Origin: Yuukianura sp. NJ FZ-2021
Lineage: Eukaryota
Length of the DNA stretch: 64,000 nt
Assembly (NCBI GenBank): GCA_046563655.1
Contig: CM102285.1
Coordinates: forward strand, 14,880,001 to 14,944,000
Reading direction: 5' to 3'
The translations under genes were made by a program, and so were the position numbers. Below, in pieces: positions 1,817-57,100 of the stretch; within the stretch, counting starts at the first letter, position 1; each line of letters starts with the position of its first letter. Under the pieces are notes generated by a model. The model was not told the DNA's origin. It did no database searches and saw only the letters and a program-made list of their open reading frames with translations.

Positions 1817-3746
1817 ATGTTGGTGGCGTCAATGACTTACTTGTTTAATTTCTGGTGGAACTATTTTTCGCCGTTGCTTTTTAGTTTCAACAGTGTGCAA
1901 CCGAAGAGTTTAGTTTTGTCCAAATTTTCAGCGAAGAACGTTTTTGGACGACAAGATTCTGGTGGGGCTAAGGAGCCGATTATTTCGAAAGATGTCAATG
2001 ACGTGGTGTTTTTTCTCTATCCTGACGCAAAGTGAGTTGAAATTTTTGAATTTTGAAGATTTTTGGAAATTTTGAAAAATTTTGAATTTGGGTTTTTTTT
2101 CAGGAATTTGATGAACAAGGAGGTCCTGATTTTTGGAGATCCGAATTCGGTGAAATTTTCGTCCTACAAGAAAAAATGGCCGTTGATTATCCTGATTCAT
2201 GGATTTACGACGAATTCCAACGACGGATTTGCACAGACGCTCAAAAACGGTTCCAACGATTTTCCATTTTTTCTATAATCGATTATTTGGCATGATTACT
2301 TTGATTTTCAGTTGATTTCTTGAGTAATTAATTGATTACTTCCTCGTGATCTTTGATTTTCAATTGATTTCTTCAGTAATTAATTGATCACTTCCTCATG
2401 ATTAGTTTGATTTTTTGCGTAATCGATTAATTGTCCCGATTACTTAGTTTTTGAGTTGATTTTTTGTGGTAACGGATTAATTATTCTCACAATTACATTG
2501 GCTTGTGGTGATTTTGTGGGTAATCGTTTAGTTATGCTTGCTTTGATTTTTAGTTGAGTTTCTGAGTAATCGATTACTTATCAAGACTCCTCCGATTACT
2601 TTGATTTTTTCTTTGTTTTAGCCTACTTGGAGACCGGATACGCGTCCAATATTGTTGCAGTTGATTGGGGGAAACTGTCTTCTCCTACTGGATCCACACC
2701 GTCACTCTACTACAACTTGGCAGTGGCCAATGTGCCACCGGTGGCCAGCAGAATCGCTGATTTCATTCTGTTTATGATGAAGATTGGCGCAGTGTCCAGT
2801 CCCTCCAGTGTGCATGTCATTGGATTCAGCCTGGGGGCTCATGTGGCTGGACTCACTGGACAAAATGTGAACATGTCCCTTGGCCACCCCTTGGCTCGTG
2901 TCACGGGCCTTGACCCTGCTGCTCCAGAATTCCAGTTGAAACCACCGCATGAGAGACTGGACAAAACTGATGCTGCTTTTGTGGATGTTTATCACACGAA
3001 TCAGGGGTTCAAGGGCTTCTTAGGGCCAATTGGGCATGTGGATTTCATGCCCAACGGAGGTCAGAGGTCAAATGTCAACTAACTTTAATTCAATTAACAC
3101 CTACTTAAATGGACAATTAACTAAATGCGATGACTTTGTTTTAATCAAAGGTGGACCATTTCAACCGGGATGCTCAAACGGAACAGATTTTTCTGATGTT
3201 TTCACCGGTGAAAAAAATGTTCACAATTTAAATGATTTGTTATATGAACTTTTGCAGTTTCCTCCTTTCAGTTCCATCACCTCTTTTTAATTTCTGTGTT
3301 TTTGACAATGAAAAAAATTTGAAATTTGAAAATTTTGAAAAACTATTGAAATTCTTTTTGTTTTTTTTAGGATCGTGTTCTCATGCAAGAGCTTACGAGT
3401 ACTTTGAGAGGTCAATCCGAAACAGTTCCATAATTGCCTGTAAATGTGAGCTAAAGAGACTCCAAGGTCCGGCCAGAAACATTGTTCCTGAAAAATGCAA
3501 AATGGGCTGTGATGATCCAGTTGTTTTTGGACAATTTTGTCCTTACAGGTACAACCACGTTAAAATTCTGAAAATATTTAAAATTTTAAAAGAATTGAAT
3601 CTAAAAATTCGGATTTTCACTCAATCAGAAGTTTTTATGCCTATTTCTTGTTTGATTTCAGTGCAAGAGGAGTTTACTACCTTAAAATTATTGTCAGTGG
3701 GAAATTTCGGGCTAGAATCCGCTTTGGGTTTAGAGGGTTTAATTAA
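1817..3746 (+). CDS. Pancreatic triacylglycerol lipase / phospholipase A1-like alpha/beta hydrolase, 6 exons
   Basis: Exons ~1817-2031, 2104-2249, 2622-3059, 3151-3207, 3371-3548, 3662-3746 join in frame with GT-AG; motifs LIHGF, VDW, GFSLG (Ser), TGLDPA (Asp), DAAFVDVYHT, GHVDFMPNGG.QPGC, CSHARAYEYF (His). Start codon less certain. Confidence 0.9.
2278..2605. repeat. Degenerate short repeats (GATTACTT / TAATCGATTA / AGTTGATTT) filling lipase intron 2
   Basis: Many recurring copies of these words across the intron. Confidence 0.55.
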
Positions 3747-54100: not shown

Positions 54101-57100
54101 TTCTTAATTGAATTATGCGCTCTTTGATTTCCAGGTCTTCACAAATAGCTGTTTAAAAACACAGAAAACAAACTAATTAGCAAATTAATTCAATTTAATC
54201 CTTTTACAAACAGTTCTAAATCAACCTTTCACGCGCCAAAAGCGCAACCTTGAAAAACATGATAAAAAAAAAGACATAAAACACAGAGATTTTATAGCCA
54301 AAAGTCAAAAAGAACACCGTCAAAACTTCCTTTTTTTTCGAATTCTCCAGAGTTTTTGAGAGTGAAAGTTTTGAAGTGCAGAAAAAGTACAGTGAGATTT
54401 TTTTCTCCCTCCTAAAATGACTGGAACGACGAAACGCATAAAATAAATGGAGAGAAAGTTGAGCAGGAGACTTGAAAAGACAGAGATTGTGATCTTTCCC
54501 CGAAATTCGGAGTTTTCGGAGAGCCAATCTTCGCTCCCATTCCAACCGAAATGAAACTAACTTTCTCCAGTCCTTGATTTTACGGTTTGGAAAGCCATTG
54601 ATCCCCAAATTGGAAAAGGGAATTAAACAAACGACCTGTGCGCGCCAAAGGAGCGAAAGAATCGTACAAAAGCCACTTTGTACGATTCTCTGTAGGTTTC
54701 ACAAAAGAAAAGGCGCGAAAAAAGTCACAAAGGAGAAAATGTGTCAATTGGAAAAGGTATTAAACGAACGGCTGGTGCGCGCCAAAGGTGCGAAACAATC
54801 TCAGAGAAGAAAAAGGCGCGAAAAAAAAAAGTCACAAAAGAGAAAATGTGTCAATTACCGTAGGGAGTCTCATTGTTCTTTGTTCTCGCATTCAGGTCAG
54901 CTCCAGCTCCAACCAAAAGTTCAAGCACTTCAATCTAAAAAGTGATAATTGAACTTTAGAAAACCAAAAGTCGAGGTCAATGACCTTGAGGTCAAAGGTC
55001 AAATGTGAAAGGTCAAAGGTCAATGAACTCACATGCGACCAACACGCAGCGGCATGAACGGGTTGCCAACAGTCCTTGTCTTGAACGTCAGTGGCAACAT
55101 GATGATCCAGCAGAAACTCAACTACACGACTGTAGCCGTTGGCTGAAGCAATGTGGAGCTAAAATTTTAGAATTCCAAAATCAAATTTTGTTAGAAATCA
55201 AATCTTCAAAATTCTGAGAAATTCGTGACGTGTTGTGACGTGTGTAACTTACGTAAGTAGCACCATCACGATCACGTGCCTCGAGGTCACCGTCTTCTCT
55301 TTCCAGCTTTCTCATGTCTTCCAGCATCCGAGTTTCTGGAAGAGCTCGAATTTCTTCAATTAATTCCTGCGTCACGCCTCTCTTGGCCATTTCAGATTCA
55401 ATAAAGTCAAGTGTCGCCTCTTCGTCACAAATGTCGTAAGGCATGTTACCCTCAGCATTCACAGCTAACAGATTCGCTCCTCTGAAAATTTCAAAATTTT
55501 CAAAAACCTCAGATTTAGAAAATTTTGAAATTTTGAAACTCGTACTTGGCTATTAAGTGTTTGACAAGGTGGAGATGGCCGCAAGTCGACGCAGCATGAA
55601 GAGGCGTCCAGCGCTCACTGTCTTCTGAATTCACATTGGCGCCGGATTCAATCAAAAGCTTCATCATCTCTTCGTTGTCGTCAATACAACACTGAAAACC
55701 AAAAAATTTTGAATTTCAAAAAAAAAGTTCAAATTCAACCGAGCACAACGCAACAACAACTGGCTCAAGTCAACCAGAACCCAAAGGCAGAACAACTGAA
55801 GCACAAAAGTGCAACAGCATGACTATTTCAACCGTGAAACCGCAGATCAGAATCCGCTTTTCCCGAGGATTAGTGTCACTCGACTCAGTGAGTTTGAGTG
55901 CTAAAATCTTTGGTTGAATTAAGGCGGGTACATGGACATCTTTCAAATCCCTGTGAAACGTGGGTACAAACTTAAAATCTGGTTGAATTCAACCGGAGAT
56001 TTGTGGTTGGTGTCGTTAATCATTGAGGCTTAAGTAATTGTGGAGGATTGTGCTTGTCGCTGTGAGAATTGAAGTTGGAATATCCCGTCGTCTGTTCCAG
56101 TGTCACTTTAAGACTGCAGAAGAAGCGGCGGGAGATGCAGCCGTCTCTTCTTTGTTCCAAAATGGAAAGTCCATTAAGACTTTCCCATCATCATCACCAA
56201 CTTCTTCTTCTTCACTTAATCTCCCTTCGCAAAGGATTAAGTCAAAGCGACACGAGCGTCAACTTCCAGCCCATCGCTGGAAATACGCTTCATATTTACT
56301 TTTCAGCTCTTTTTAATTTAATTTTTCACTCCATAGTTACTCCCTCCAAACTTATTTTTAATTTAGCTTCTCCCGTGTGATATATTTTTATTTTCTAACA
56401 AATTTTCTAAATTGTCTTTTTTTGGAGTTTTTTAGTGTCCCACGTCTCGCATTTTCTTTTTTGAGTTTTAACTGCGCTCGGGGGAAAAAGTGCAGAGCGG
56501 AATTTCAAGAATGCACAACTGAAAAGCATGGTGACAAACTTAGATTTTTTAAAATTCGTTTTTCAAAATACGAGTTTAGAAAATCAAAAAGTGCGTTTTA
56601 GTGCATTTTCGACTGAAGAATTTTAAAAATCGCTCTGTACTTTGTCTATTTACGGTTTTGCATTGAAAGTGGATGATCGTTTTATGTTTGTCATCGACTG
56701 TGGATGCTATGCACAAGGTATAATAACATTTGGGAACGCTGTTTATTCTTCCAATGTCAACTCAAGAAGAATCTCAACTCAAATCGAAACACAACTTCGG
56801 TTTTATGCTAACCGTTAACCGGAAATACGCTCCCAGAGTTTTCAGTTTTCAAAAAAAAAAAAAAACACTCTGTACTTCCAAATGACTTAAATCCACTTTC
56901 ACACCTTATAAGGACCTCACAAAAATCATTAGATCCTACAAAACATCGAACAAGTTTTTCCCAAATTTTAAAAACTTCATTCTTAACAATACGAAAGCTA
57001 AAAATAGTCTACAAGAGTAGCTTTTGCAACTTCTGGAAGGAGTAACTAAGTTGGCGTTTTTTACGCAATTTCATTGTGATTGTACAAAAAGATTTTTTGA

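What the first reader, a model, noticed from the sequence alone, without database searches (positions are those of the whole stretch)
3059..55030. AGGTCA/TGACCT arrays hug splice sites and stop codons in either orientation
Seen: tandem TGACCT(T)/AGGTCA(A) units begin within a few bases of exon ends: after donors at 3060, 10676, ~13997, 15453, ~42853, 44578, 46158, ~53130 and ~55030; before acceptors at ~44627, ~46392, ~49878, ~51315; and just past stop codons of hairy (32180), NWD (~50043) and PPP1R16 (~51155). Both sense and antisense orientations occur (10676 TGACCT vs 46158 AGGTCA in + strand genes), so it looks like a DNA-level rather than RNA splicing signal. Known: AGGTCA-n-AGGTCA is the DR1 element of RXR/USP, HNF4 and COUP/Svp receptors. 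Inference: a nuclear-receptor-like protein or a chromatin mechanism marks exon borders, for example positioning nucleosomes over GC-richer exons.
Basis: partly seen in the sequence, partly recalled or inferred. Interest (0 to 1): 0.75.

Follow-up and report, generated by a model that had tools for sequence, protein, structure and literature searches.

The report
Heptamer repeat arrays flanking coding exons
In this springtail-like genome piece, short runs of the 7-base unit TGACCTT/AAGGTCA really do sit flush against coding exons, often supplying the splice signals themselves, but whether they are useful signals or merely tolerated junk repeats is still open.

Summary
AGGTCA/TGACCT occurs 129 times against 30 expected and forms 26 short arrays, mostly of period 7. 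Of 13 arrays inside 60 modelled introns, 11 lie within 25 nt of an intron end. This persists when intron length is controlled. Arrays also start 0, 13 and 11 nt after three stop codons, so they abut coding sequence, not exon ends as such.

In introns 10 arrays read TGACCT on the transcript strand and 2 read AGGTCA (P=0.039).

The arrays are genome-wide with unrelated flanks. They are not part of a larger element here, and one array-bearing intron is ancient.

The repeat physically supplies splice signals. The GT of 5 of 62 donors lies inside a hexamer (AG|GTCA or G|TGACCT), and four acceptors have TTGAC plus pyrimidines at branch-site distance. Mixed-orientation arrays fold into strong hairpins.

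Best reading (0.4): a dispersed DNA repeat whose survival and orientation next to exons are filtered by splicing, because either strand mimics a splice signal.

Rivals are a true RNA splicing element and nuclear-receptor (DR1/IR1) binding. All gene models lack RNA support.

The parts
3058..3070 (+). AGGTCA x2 in sense orientation. The first unit contains the donor of the lipase intron 3060-3150 (GAG|GTCAGAGGTCA).
10677..10702 (+). TGACCT x4, starting at base 2 of the 674-nt FAK intron 10676-11349 (CAG|GTGACCTTGACCTTTGACCTTTGACCT).
13997..14028 (+). TGACCT x4, 13 nt into FAK intron 13984-14077.
15453..15472 (+). Degenerate unit run (GTTCACCTTTGACCCCTCTC) at the donor of FAK intron 15453-15983. 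It holds no perfect hexamer.
22483..22488 (-). Single AGGTCA that contains the donor of hairy-like intron 1 (AAG|GTCATTAC; intron 22334-22486).
32180..32240 (+). Mixed-orientation array of 6 hexamers starting directly after the hairy stop codon TAG (32177-32179). It holds two AGGTCAATGACCT palindromes and folds at -30.1 kcal/mol (z -7.3).
42624..42661 (+). TGACCT x3 just upstream of a putative acceptor (…TGACCTGTGCAG|TG) before the first coding exon of NWD (ATG at 42775). The 5'UTR intron is not verified.
42854..42881 (+). TGACCT x4, 17 nt into NWD intron 42837-42941.
44579..44641 (+). TGACCT x5 filling the 81-nt NWD intron 44578-44658. The first unit starts at base 2 of the intron (CAG|GTGACCTTTGACC), and the last TTGAC has its A 21 nt before the acceptor.
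46161..46211 (+). AGGTCA x5 plus one TGACCT at the 5' end of NWD intron 46158-46412. It is predicted to pair with the 3' array of the same intron.
46392..46404 (+). TGACCT x2, 8 nt before the acceptor of NWD intron 46158-46412 (TTTGACCTTTGACCTTTTTTCAG|).
49878..49897 (+). TGACCT x3, 5 nt before the acceptor of the last NWD intron 49817-49902.
50044..50057 (+). TGACCT x2 plus a TGACCC unit, 13 nt after the NWD stop codon TAA (50028-50030).
51115..51154 (-). Mixed-orientation array forming a near-perfect 38-nt palindrome, 11 nt after the PPP1R16-like stop codon (TAA 51166-51168, minus strand). The RNA hairpin is -32.8 kcal/mol (z -8.5).
51321..51333 (-). Sense TGACCT x2 plus a TGACTT unit, 24 nt before the acceptor at 51297 of the last PPP1R16-like intron.
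52927..52985 (-). Sense TGACCT x6 (loose spacing), 165 nt from the donor at 53150. The intron model 51849-53150 is uncertain.
53087..53132 (-). Sense TGACCT x3 plus one AGGTCA, 18 nt after the donor at 53150. Hairpins fold at -28.8 kcal/mol (z -4.3).
54974..55022 (-). Sense TGACCT x5 plus one AGGTCA, 10 nt after the donor at 55032 in the 98-nt PPP1R16-like intron 54935-55032.
59039..59044 (-). Single AGGTCA containing the donor of PPP1R16-like intron 1 (GAAG|GTCAGAAAAC; donor at 59042).
59424..59442 (-). Sense AGGTCA x3 in the 5' leader, 32 nt upstream of the PPP1R16-like ATG (59391).
23088..23114 (.). TGACCT x3 in unassigned DNA upstream of the hairy-like gene. Other unassigned arrays lie at 23387-23400, 25634-25653, 33480-33502 and 41142-41154.
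13537..13548 (+). AGGTCAAGGTCA inside FAK coding sequence (encodes GQGQ of the kinase glycine loop). It is a coding coincidence, as are 46077-46090 (NWD exon) and 51586-51607 (PPP1R16-like exon).

Best explanation
(TGACCTT)n/(AAGGTCA)n is a dispersed, microsatellite-like DNA repeat of this genome. It forms short arrays of 2-6 units with no shared flanking element. It occupies the non-coding DNA that directly abuts coding sequence.

It can sit there because each strand mimics a splice signal. Read as AAGGTCA it contains AG|GT, the core of a 5' splice site. Read as TGACCTT it gives G|TGA after an exon-final G. It also gives TTGAC followed by CCTTT, which looks like a branch site plus a pyrimidine stretch.

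The arrays arise at the DNA level by slippage, duplication or insertion. This step is inferred. Selection acting through pre-mRNA splicing then decides where, and in which orientation, they persist.
- Flush with an authentic splice site they are harmless, or are used as the signal.
- Deep in introns, or as sense AG|GT runs, they would act as decoy splice sites and are purged.
- Coding sequence excludes them altogether, which sets the sharp boundary.

Where both orientations meet they form hairpins, a by-product that may have acquired functions.

Shown: excess, position, orientation bias, use of the repeat as donor GT in the gene models, and lack of a shared element. Inferred: the origin of the arrays, the selective filter, and actual use as branch sites.
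For: 1. Excess and period-7 arrays.

2. Independent loci.
- Self-comparison of the window finds only array-to-array matches of 27-38 nt.
- The flanks of all 26 arrays are unrelated.
- In public DNA runs of the organism, 56 and 36 contigs (run X1) end at the two edges of the single array 54989-55022, with flanks agreeing only 0.39.

3. Position. 11 of 13 intronic arrays lie within 25 nt of an intron end, significant under three null models. GACCTT (27.6x) and TTGACC (20x) are the most enriched hexamers in the first 46 nt of introns compared with intron interiors, above GTAAGT.

4. Orientation. 10 arrays against 2, and 45 hexamers against 13, read TGACCT on the transcript strand in introns. By my tally, the 5 arrays flanking start or stop codons or lying upstream of the NWD start are mixed, 3 against 2.

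5. Use as a splice signal.
- 5 of 62 donors have their GT inside a perfect hexamer: 3 as AG|GTCA and 2 as G|TGACCT.
- All 4 acceptor-side arrays are sense TGACCT. By my count on the sequences, a TTGAC adenine lies roughly 16-23 nt before the acceptor.

6. Not intron gain. Many short homologous proteins from other organisms lose similarity at about 46160, the donor of the array-bearing NWD intron, so that intron is old.

7. In-register one-mismatch units keep the TCA/TGA half in 14 of 14 cases.
Against: - A splicing filter does not by itself explain why arrays start 0-13 nt after three stop codons and 32 nt before a start codon. My rough estimate is about 2% of non-intronic non-coding DNA lying that close to a CDS end, against 4 of 10 arrays.
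- Many arrays are perfect, for example 4 exact units at 10677-10702. That argues for recent origin or constraint rather than passive relics.
- Inverted pairs strongly prefer a 1-nt spacer (5 of 7). Simple slippage does not predict this; a dimeric DNA-binding protein would.
- The orientation bias rests on only 12 arrays (P=0.039).
- All exon ends are models without RNA evidence, and intron 51849-53150 and the e7-e8 donor are uncertain.
- Only 64 kb of one genome was examined.
- Donors next to arrays are not demonstrably weaker. A matrix score differs (P=4e-4) but was trained on the other introns, and a training-free consensus count shows no difference (6.30 against 5.92 of 9, P=0.87).
Confidence: 0.4

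Rival explanations
1. The arrays are a positively selected RNA element of pre-mRNA. UGACCUU runs would act as reiterated branch-site and pyrimidine modules at 3' ends, and as intronic enhancers just downstream of 5' splice sites. Complementary AGGUCA and UGACCU arrays at opposite intron ends would bridge the intron, as the AC/GT repeats of fish introns do.
For: - Sense-strand bias of 10:2 arrays and 45:13 hexamers.
- Top-ranked hexamer enrichment at both intron ends.
- Acceptor-side arrays sit at branch-site distance.
- In intron 46158-46412 both the minimum-energy and centroid folds pair the 5' AGGUCA array with the 3' UGACCU array.
- The UGAC/TCA half is kept in 14 of 14 one-mismatch units.
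- Precedent: complementary AC and GT repeats at opposite intron boundaries form a bridging structure (PMC4691745, abstract read).
Against: - Only 1 of 11 array-bearing introns has complementary arrays at both ends. Direct-orientation arrays have no structure (z +0.89 for 44578-44658), and the whole bridged intron is only z -1.9.
- It does not explain arrays directly after stop codons or before a start codon, nor arrays in intergenic DNA.
- Donor-side UGAC motifs are too close to the 5' splice site to serve as that intron's branch points (established knowledge).
- I know of no RNA-binding protein with this motif (recall only).
- Only 11 of 60 modelled introns carry an array.
Confidence: 0.25
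2. The arrays are DNA binding sites for a nuclear receptor such as USP/RXR, EcR/USP, HNF4 or Svp, or for another dimeric DNA-binding protein. Alternatively they are a chromatin or nucleosome boundary next to GC-richer coding DNA. The orientation bias in introns would be a secondary filter against decoy splice sites.
For: - DR1 is the dominant direct spacing (22 of 48) and IR1 the dominant inverted spacing (5 of 7). There are five AGGTCA-N-TGACCT sites in 64 kb, four of them AGGTCAATGACCT. That 13-mer is the IR1 core used for an FXR/RXR crystal structure, which was solved with the EcR/USP/IR1 complex as search model (PMC10242635, passages).
- Arrays track coding-sequence ends, including stop codons, as a GC-guided chromatin feature would.
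- Orientation is mixed outside introns.
- Precedent for repeat-borne receptor sites: 108,582 consensus DR2 elements in the human genome, 90% of them in Alu (PMC1785376, abstract).
Against: - A period-7 array yields DR1 automatically.
- The arrays are extremely abundant genome-wide.
- 7 of 14 one-mismatch units break the RGKTCA half-site rule, at position 2 or 3.
- Sense-strand bias in introns.
- There is no evidence of any protein binding, and no known mechanism by which receptor sites would need to touch coding ends.
Confidence: 0.17
3. The arrays are the ends (terminal or subterminal repeats) of an intron-generating transposon (introner or MITE). The array-bearing introns would be recent gains.
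For: - Intron 46158-46412 has AGGTCA runs at its left end and TGACCT runs at its right end, like inverted terminal repeats.
- Several short introns consist largely of array sequence.
- In metagenome contigs the same 20-mer lies inside interspersed repeats with conserved flanks, for example L010, L016, L029, L039, L056, L109 and L114.
- Introners are known from 175 of 3,325 genomes (PMC9860276, passage).
Against: - There is no sequence similarity between array-bearing introns beyond the arrays. Inspection of the flanks showed no target-site duplications.
- The intron at 46158 is at a position shared with many distant homologues.
- 10 of 12 oriented arrays are direct rather than inverted pairs.
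- Arrays also lie in untranslated regions and intergenic DNA.
- The metagenome repeat flanks have no match in the window: of 963 matches the longest is 50 nt, and the 12 longest listed all lie on array coordinates.
Confidence: 0.05
4. The pattern is a passive relic. An older wave of this repeat once filled short introns and leaders. Later turnover by AT-rich low-complexity DNA and insertions overwrote everything except the few tens of bases next to constrained sites, where indels are selected against.
For: - Long array-bearing introns have evidently inserted interiors, for example a 131-bp satellite in 51849-53150.
- Most other short introns are filled with AATTTTGAAA-type repeats.
- Degenerate units such as TGACCC and the 15453 run exist.
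- This model explains hugging of stop and start codons as well as splice sites.
Against: - Many arrays are perfect copies, which is unexpected for old relics.
- Decay is not uniform across the unit: 14 of 14 mismatches fall in one half.
- It predicts no orientation bias.
Confidence: 0.1

Closest known systems
Complementary (AC)m-(GT)n repeats at opposite intron boundaries in teleost fish (Lin et al. 2016, PMC4691745; abstract read)
   Same: Simple tandem repeats are concentrated at intron ends in a lineage-specific way. In one intron here (46158-46412) complementary arrays at the two ends are predicted to pair and bridge the splice sites.
   Different: - The unit is a heptamer, not a dinucleotide.
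- Only 1 of 11 array-bearing introns has the complementary pair.
- Most arrays are in one orientation and unstructured.
- Arrays also abut stop and start codons.
- There is no experimental evidence here.
Repeat-borne nuclear receptor response elements, such as Alu DR2 and HNF4 sites in primates (PMC1785376, abstract read; PMC3252374, search listing only)
   Same: AGGTCA-type half-sites have been multiplied to very high copy number by repetitive DNA. DR and IR geometries are those that receptor dimers recognise.
   Different: - No transposon body carries the motif in this window.
- The spacing is DR1/IR1, not DR2.
- Location is flush with coding sequence, with a strand bias in introns.
- Receptor binding is untested.
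Introners, intron-generating transposons (PMC9860276; passage read)
   Same: A repeated sequence sits at intron ends and supplies splice-site nucleotides.
   Different: There are no families of similar introns, at least one host intron is ancient, and arrays also occur outside introns.
Ordinary microsatellites and short tandem repeats near splice sites (for example human splicing-associated tandem repeats, PMC10078293; search listing only)
   Same: They are head-to-tail short units at many independent loci with unrelated flanks.
   Different: The same heptamer recurs at about one array per 2.5 kb. It shows sharp positional preference, non-uniform unit decay and a preferred palindromic junction.

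Membership tests
Nuclear receptor response element (DR1 / IR1) | RGKTCA half-sites arranged as direct or inverted repeats with a 1-nt spacer | tested here: met
   22 of 48 adjacent direct pairs and 5 of 7 AGGTCA-n-TGACCT pairs have spacer 1. Five AGGTCA-N-TGACCT sites lie at 32180, 32228, 46190, 51142 and 54974. A period-7 array gives DR1 by construction.
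Nuclear receptor response element (DR1 / IR1) | Degenerate copies stay within the RGKTCA half-site consensus | tested here: inconclusive
   Of 14 in-register one-mismatch units, 7 are GGGTCA (allowed) and 7 break position 2 or 3. None changes TCA.
Nuclear receptor response element (DR1 / IR1) | Occupancy by a receptor protein, and hormone- or receptor-dependent regulation | not testable with these tools
   No binding or expression data are available, and no RNA run was listed.
Nuclear receptor response element (DR1 / IR1) | Works independently of orientation relative to transcription | tested here: not met
   Intronic arrays are 10 sense TGACCT against 2 sense AGGTCA, P=0.039. Orientation is mixed outside introns.
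Intron-bridging complementary repeats (fish AC/GT class) | Complementary repeats co-occur at opposite ends of the same intron | tested here: not met
   Only intron 46158-46412 of the 11 array-bearing introns has this arrangement.
Intron-bridging complementary repeats (fish AC/GT class) | A predicted stable structure joins the intron ends | tested here: inconclusive
   This is met for 46158-46412 in both the minimum-energy and centroid folds, but the whole-intron z is only -1.9. It is absent in 44578-44658.
Introner / MITE-derived introns | Many introns share sequence over their whole length | tested here: not met
   Self-BLAST finds only 27-38 nt array-to-array matches, and the flanks are unrelated.
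Introner / MITE-derived introns | Recently gained intron positions not shared with homologues | tested here: not met
   This was tested for one intron only. Similarity of many short homologues stops at about 46160, the donor at 46158. The other array-bearing introns were not tested.
Microsatellite / short tandem repeat | Head-to-tail short units at many independent loci with unrelated flanks | tested here: met
   Tandem Repeats Finder reports period 7. There are 26 arrays with unrelated flanks. Dozens of contigs from elsewhere in the genome end in the array.
Microsatellite / short tandem repeat | Length polymorphism by slippage | not tested
   The laid contigs from other loci pile up on the arrays, so allelic length variation could not be read.
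Branch site plus polypyrimidine tract | A YTRAC-like motif some 15-40 nt upstream of the acceptor, followed by pyrimidines (consensus recalled, not from a call) | tested here: met
   All 4 acceptor-side arrays are sense TTGACC(T)TT, with a TGAC adenine about 16-23 nt before the AG (sequences; my count).
Branch site plus polypyrimidine tract | Actual lariat formation at the motif | not testable with these tools
   No RNA data are available.

The most novel reading that the evidence does not exclude
The heptamer arrays are a lineage-specific functional code that flanks coding segments. A dimeric AGGTCA-binding protein (USP/EcR/HNF4-like or a novel factor), or an RNA-binding factor, would recognise DR1/IR1 arrays placed flush with coding DNA. 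This would help define coding exons co-transcriptionally. The strong hairpins after stop codons (z -7 to -8.5) might serve as a separate RNA signal or as a source of repeat-targeting small RNAs.
Probability: 0.15. Interest if true: 0.85.

Novelty: new variant of a known kind. Interest (0 to 1): 0.55.

Why it matters
If the pattern holds genome-wide, it is a clear case of one short repeat colonising the borders of coding sequence and being read as a splice signal on either strand. That bears on three questions:
- how splice sites tolerate or recruit repetitive DNA;
- how lineage-specific intron-end repeats arise, the fish AC/GT introns being the only well-studied precedent I found;
- whether repeat-borne nuclear-receptor motifs can rewire regulation in arthropods.

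It also matters in practice. Gene finders trained on GTAAGT donors will miss AG|GTCA and G|GTGACC donors in these genomes.

Tried and rejected
- RNA evidence. No RNA holder was listed for 42000-51999, so every splice site is a model.
- Whole genome. None is held for this window, so no genome-wide metaplot could be made.
- Earlier notes of this scan. Three look-ups returned nothing.
- Larger repeat element around the arrays. Self-BLAST and flank inspection found none.
- U12-type introns. GTGACCTT faintly resembles the recalled U12 donor GTATCCTT, but the 3' ends of 10676-11349 and 44578-44658 show no TCCTTAAC-like branch site. I rejected this on inspection, using consensus sequences recalled from memory.
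- Weak-donor compensation. The matrix score difference (P=4e-4) is not independent of the training set, and a training-free consensus count shows none (P=0.87). I dropped this claim.
- Three-frame stop cassette. (TGACCTT)3 puts TGA in all three frames while (AAGGTCA)3 has no stop. However, the in-frame read-through of the hairy array meets no early stop, and AT-rich introns have many stops anyway. I kept this only as a curiosity.
- Homologue searches. FAK succeeded, NWD gave one partial hit, and the PPP1R16-like exon gave none. The PPP1R16-like model therefore rests on ORFs, Pfam ankyrin hits and the splice matrix.
- Metagenome scan for the 20-mer. They share only the array with the window, so they say nothing direct about exon hugging here.
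- Literature. Searches for TGACCT with intron, tandem repeat and splice site, for springtail genome, intron and repeat, and for AAGGTCA/TGACCTT with microsatellite gave no paper describing this pattern. Only listings and abstracts were seen. Supplements of springtail genome papers were not opened and could hold repeat catalogues.
- Rfam. Only a tRNA reached threshold in the window.

Full report
WHAT THE WINDOW IS

Pfam scans of the 150 longest stop-to-stop frames (of 338 frames of 60 aa or more) show a compact animal locus. The genes are:
- a pancreatic-type lipase (+, about 1.8-3.8 kb);
- focal adhesion kinase FAK (+, 7.3-20.3 kb);
- two hairy/E(spl)-type bHLH-Orange genes (- at about 21.2-22.5 kb, + at 31.2-32.2 kb);
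- COX5B (-);
- SF3b10 (+);
- a TLDc protein (+);
- an NWD1-like NACHT-WD40 protein (+, about 42.7-50.0 kb);
- a PPP1R16-like ankyrin protein (-, about 51.2-59.4 kb).

The best FAK relatives are from the springtails Allacma fusca (80% identity) and Folsomia candida (77%). I therefore treat the window as collembolan or close to it. GC content is 34-44%.

No whole genome is held and no RNA run was listed. All exon ends below are models.
- FAK was modelled with homologue P0002 (19 introns).
- NWD was modelled with P0042, taken from the one exhaustive protein search.
- The other genes used reading-frame continuity, conserved peptide motifs and a splice-site matrix trained on the FAK and NWD introns.
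- The set is 62 introns. The statistics used the first 60 (20,424 nt).
- The models for 51849-53150 and the donor of the PPP1R16-like e7-e8 intron are uncertain.

Yes.
- The hexamer occurs 129 times on both strands against 30.1 +/- 5.5 in dinucleotide-preserving shuffles. None of 100 shuffles reaches 129.
- Tandem Repeats Finder calls period-7 TGACCTT arrays.
- With a simple rule (2 or more perfect hexamers, gaps up to 14 nt) there are 26 arrays and 46 single hexamers.
- Adjacent same-strand hexamers are most often 1 nt apart (22 of 48 pairs within 20 nt). AGGTCA-n-TGACCT pairs have n=1 in 5 of 7 cases.

The observation check gives the site-by-site distances. The 15453 site is only a degenerate run.

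POSITION

Thirteen arrays lie in the 60 modelled introns. Their distances to the nearer intron end are -2, 1, 1, 3, 5, 8, 10, 13, 17, 18, 24, 165 and 1452 nt.
- Placing arrays uniformly over all intronic bases never gave 11 of 13 within 25 nt in 20,000 trials.
- Keeping each array in its own intron gives a combined P of 7e-4.
- Using only the 7 arrays in introns of 200 nt or more gives P=0.0016.

An unbiased scan of all strand-specific hexamers points the same way. GACCTT (27.6-fold) and TTGACC (20-fold) are the most enriched words in the first 46 nt of introns relative to intron interiors, ahead of GTAAGT. They are also among the top words in the last 46 nt.

Arrays abut coding sequence, not just splice sites.
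- The array starts 0 nt after the hairy stop codon, 13 nt after the NWD stop and 11 nt after the PPP1R16-like stop.
- Another array lies 32 nt before the PPP1R16-like start codon.
- These positions are inside terminal or first exons. The thing being hugged is therefore the end of the coding sequence.

ORIENTATION

They do, but unequally.
- In introns 10 arrays read TGACCT on the transcript strand and 2 read AGGTCA (binomial P=0.039). One array is a 1:1 pair.
- At the hexamer level the split is 45 against 13.
- The two sense-AGGTCA arrays (3058, 46161) both sit on the donor itself.
- Outside introns the orientation is mixed.
- The second refutation criterion, a strict strand bias, is not met either. 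What is seen is a clear but not strict bias confined to introns.

WHAT THE ARRAYS ARE NOT

They are not part of a larger interspersed element in this genome.
- Self-comparison of the window gives only array-to-array matches of 27-38 nt.
- The 40-nt flanks of all 26 arrays are unrelated.

They are, however, genome-wide.
- I laid contigs of three public DNA runs on 41000-60999. Runs X1 and X2 are one sample. X5 comes from a second coded organism whose long pieces differ by about 2-5%.
- Dozens of contigs from elsewhere stop at the two edges of the array at 54989-55022: 56 and 36 in X1, 37 and 30 in X2, and 24 at one edge in X5.
- Their flanks agree only 0.39-0.41.

They are not signs of recent intron gain, at least in the one case I could test. 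Many short homologous proteins from other organisms lose similarity at about 46160, which is the donor of the array-rich NWD intron. That intron position is therefore old.

- In many of them the array lies inside interspersed or tandem composite repeats with conserved flanks.
- Others are from GC-rich contigs.
- None shares anything but the array with this window.
- The heptamer array as such is thus not unique to this genome, but its context here is different.

HOW IT RELATES TO SPLICING

The repeat physically supplies splice signals in the models.
- Five of 62 donors have their GT inside a perfect hexamer. Three are AG|GTCA (lipase 3060, hairy-like 22486, PPP1R16-like 59042) and two are G|GTGACCTT (FAK 10676, NWD 44578).
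- Three of the only four donors with C at position +3 are these AG|GTCA sites.
- All four acceptor-side arrays are in the TGACCT sense. They read TTGACC(T)TT, and by my count on the sequences an adenine lies about 16-23 nt before the AG. That is what a branch site followed by pyrimidines looks like. The branch-site consensus is recalled, and use as a branch site is inferred.
- In-register units with one mismatch keep the TCA/TGA half in 14 of 14 cases, and half of them are TGACCC. Decay of the unit is therefore not uniform.
- I could not show that array-adjacent donors are weaker than others.

STRUCTURE

- Where the two orientations meet, strong hairpins are predicted: -32.8 kcal/mol (z -8.5) just after the PPP1R16-like stop, -30.1 (z -7.3) just after the hairy stop, and -28.8 (z -4.3) at the 5' end of intron 51849-53150.
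- Arrays in one orientation have no structure.
- In NWD intron 46158-46412 the 5' AGGUCA run pairs with the 3' UGACCU run in both the minimum-energy and the centroid fold. The whole intron scores only z -1.9.
- This resembles the bridging AC/GT repeats of fish introns (PMC4691745, abstract). It is the only such intron of 11 here.

MOST LIKELY EXPLANATION (0.4)

The arrays are a dispersed DNA repeat whose distribution is shaped by selection on pre-mRNA splicing and on coding sequence.
- Either strand of the unit imitates a splice signal: AG|GT on one strand, and G|TGA plus TTGAC-CCTTT on the other.
- An array can therefore lie flush with an exon and be used as, or coexist with, the real signal.
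- The same property makes it a decoy deep inside introns, or as a sense AG|GT run. That would explain the depletion from intron interiors and the orientation bias.
- Coding sequence excludes the arrays, giving the sharp edge.
- The weak point is that the crowding at stop and start codons is not explained by splicing.

RIVALS

- A true RNA splicing element (0.25) explains the bias and the intron-end enrichment, but not the untranslated-region arrays or the donor-side arrays.
That 13-mer is the IR1 core crystallised with FXR/RXR DNA-binding domains (PMC10242635, passages). It is also supported by the tracking of GC-rich coding DNA. It has no direct support and must invoke a secondary splicing filter. 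Repeat-borne receptor sites have a precedent in Alu DR2 elements (PMC1785376, abstract).
- A passive-relic model (0.1) and an introner/MITE model (0.05) fit less well.

NOVELTY AND LIMITS

Three literature searches found no description of this pattern (listings and abstracts only). I rate it a new variant of known kinds, namely intron-end simple repeats and repeat-borne receptor motifs.

The evidence is one 64-kb window, about two dozen arrays, and gene models without RNA support. The orientation bias in particular needs the whole genome.

Noticed in passing
window 52111-52794: There are five tandem copies of a 131-bp unit (96-97% identical) inside a PPP1R16-like intron. In the laid DNA runs the two depth bins spanning 51672-53005, which hold this stretch, have summed word depths of about 140,000-200,000 in X1, against about 240-3,500 in the other bins. 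The unit is therefore probably a major satellite of the genome.
   Followed up: partly
window 45353-45425 (-): A tRNA-Gln (anticodon CTG) gene lies inside NWD intron 45240-45713, on the opposite strand (Rfam 66.7 bits; ARAGORN).
   Followed up: yes
window 22174-22335 (-) and 31272-31432 (+): Two hairy/E(spl)-like paralogues lie in inverted orientation about 9 kb apart. They share 86% nucleotide identity over the bHLH exon, and both end in WRPW.
   Followed up: partly
most short introns, e.g. window 44791-44849, 48338-48400, 13416-13487: A second, AT-rich low-complexity motif (AATTTTGAAA and variants, nearly palindromic) fills most short introns that lack TGACCT arrays. It is also a genome-wide repeat: many contigs have loose ends at 44804-44837. 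It shares the TTTGA core with the TGACCTT unit.
   Followed up: partly
loci L001-L120 (metagenome contigs), e.g. L038:2440-3200: The same (TGACCTT)-type 20-mer occurs in at least 120 metagenome contigs.
- In many contigs with GC 0.40-0.50 it is internal to composite repeats with conserved flanks. L038, for example, holds units of about 290 nt repeated in tandem. The array is often preceded by GTGACCT, as at window 10676.
- Other contigs have GC 0.62-0.68.
- What these elements are was not worked out.
   Followed up: partly
window arrays in general: Because 7 is not a multiple of 3, three sense TGACCTT units place a TGA stop codon in each of the three reading frames. AAGGTCA units contain no stop in any frame.
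   Followed up: partly
window 15460, 41155, 53070 (also 50058, 32217): Several arrays end in a recurrent variant, TGACCCCTC or TGACCC. At 15460 and 41155 it is followed by a similar CT(CT)GCA. This could be a shared array terminus or parallel decay.
   Followed up: no
window 51115-51152: A 38-nt near-perfect palindrome made of repeat units lies in the roughly 1.1-kb gap between the convergent NWD and PPP1R16-like genes, within both presumed 3' untranslated regions.
   Followed up: partly
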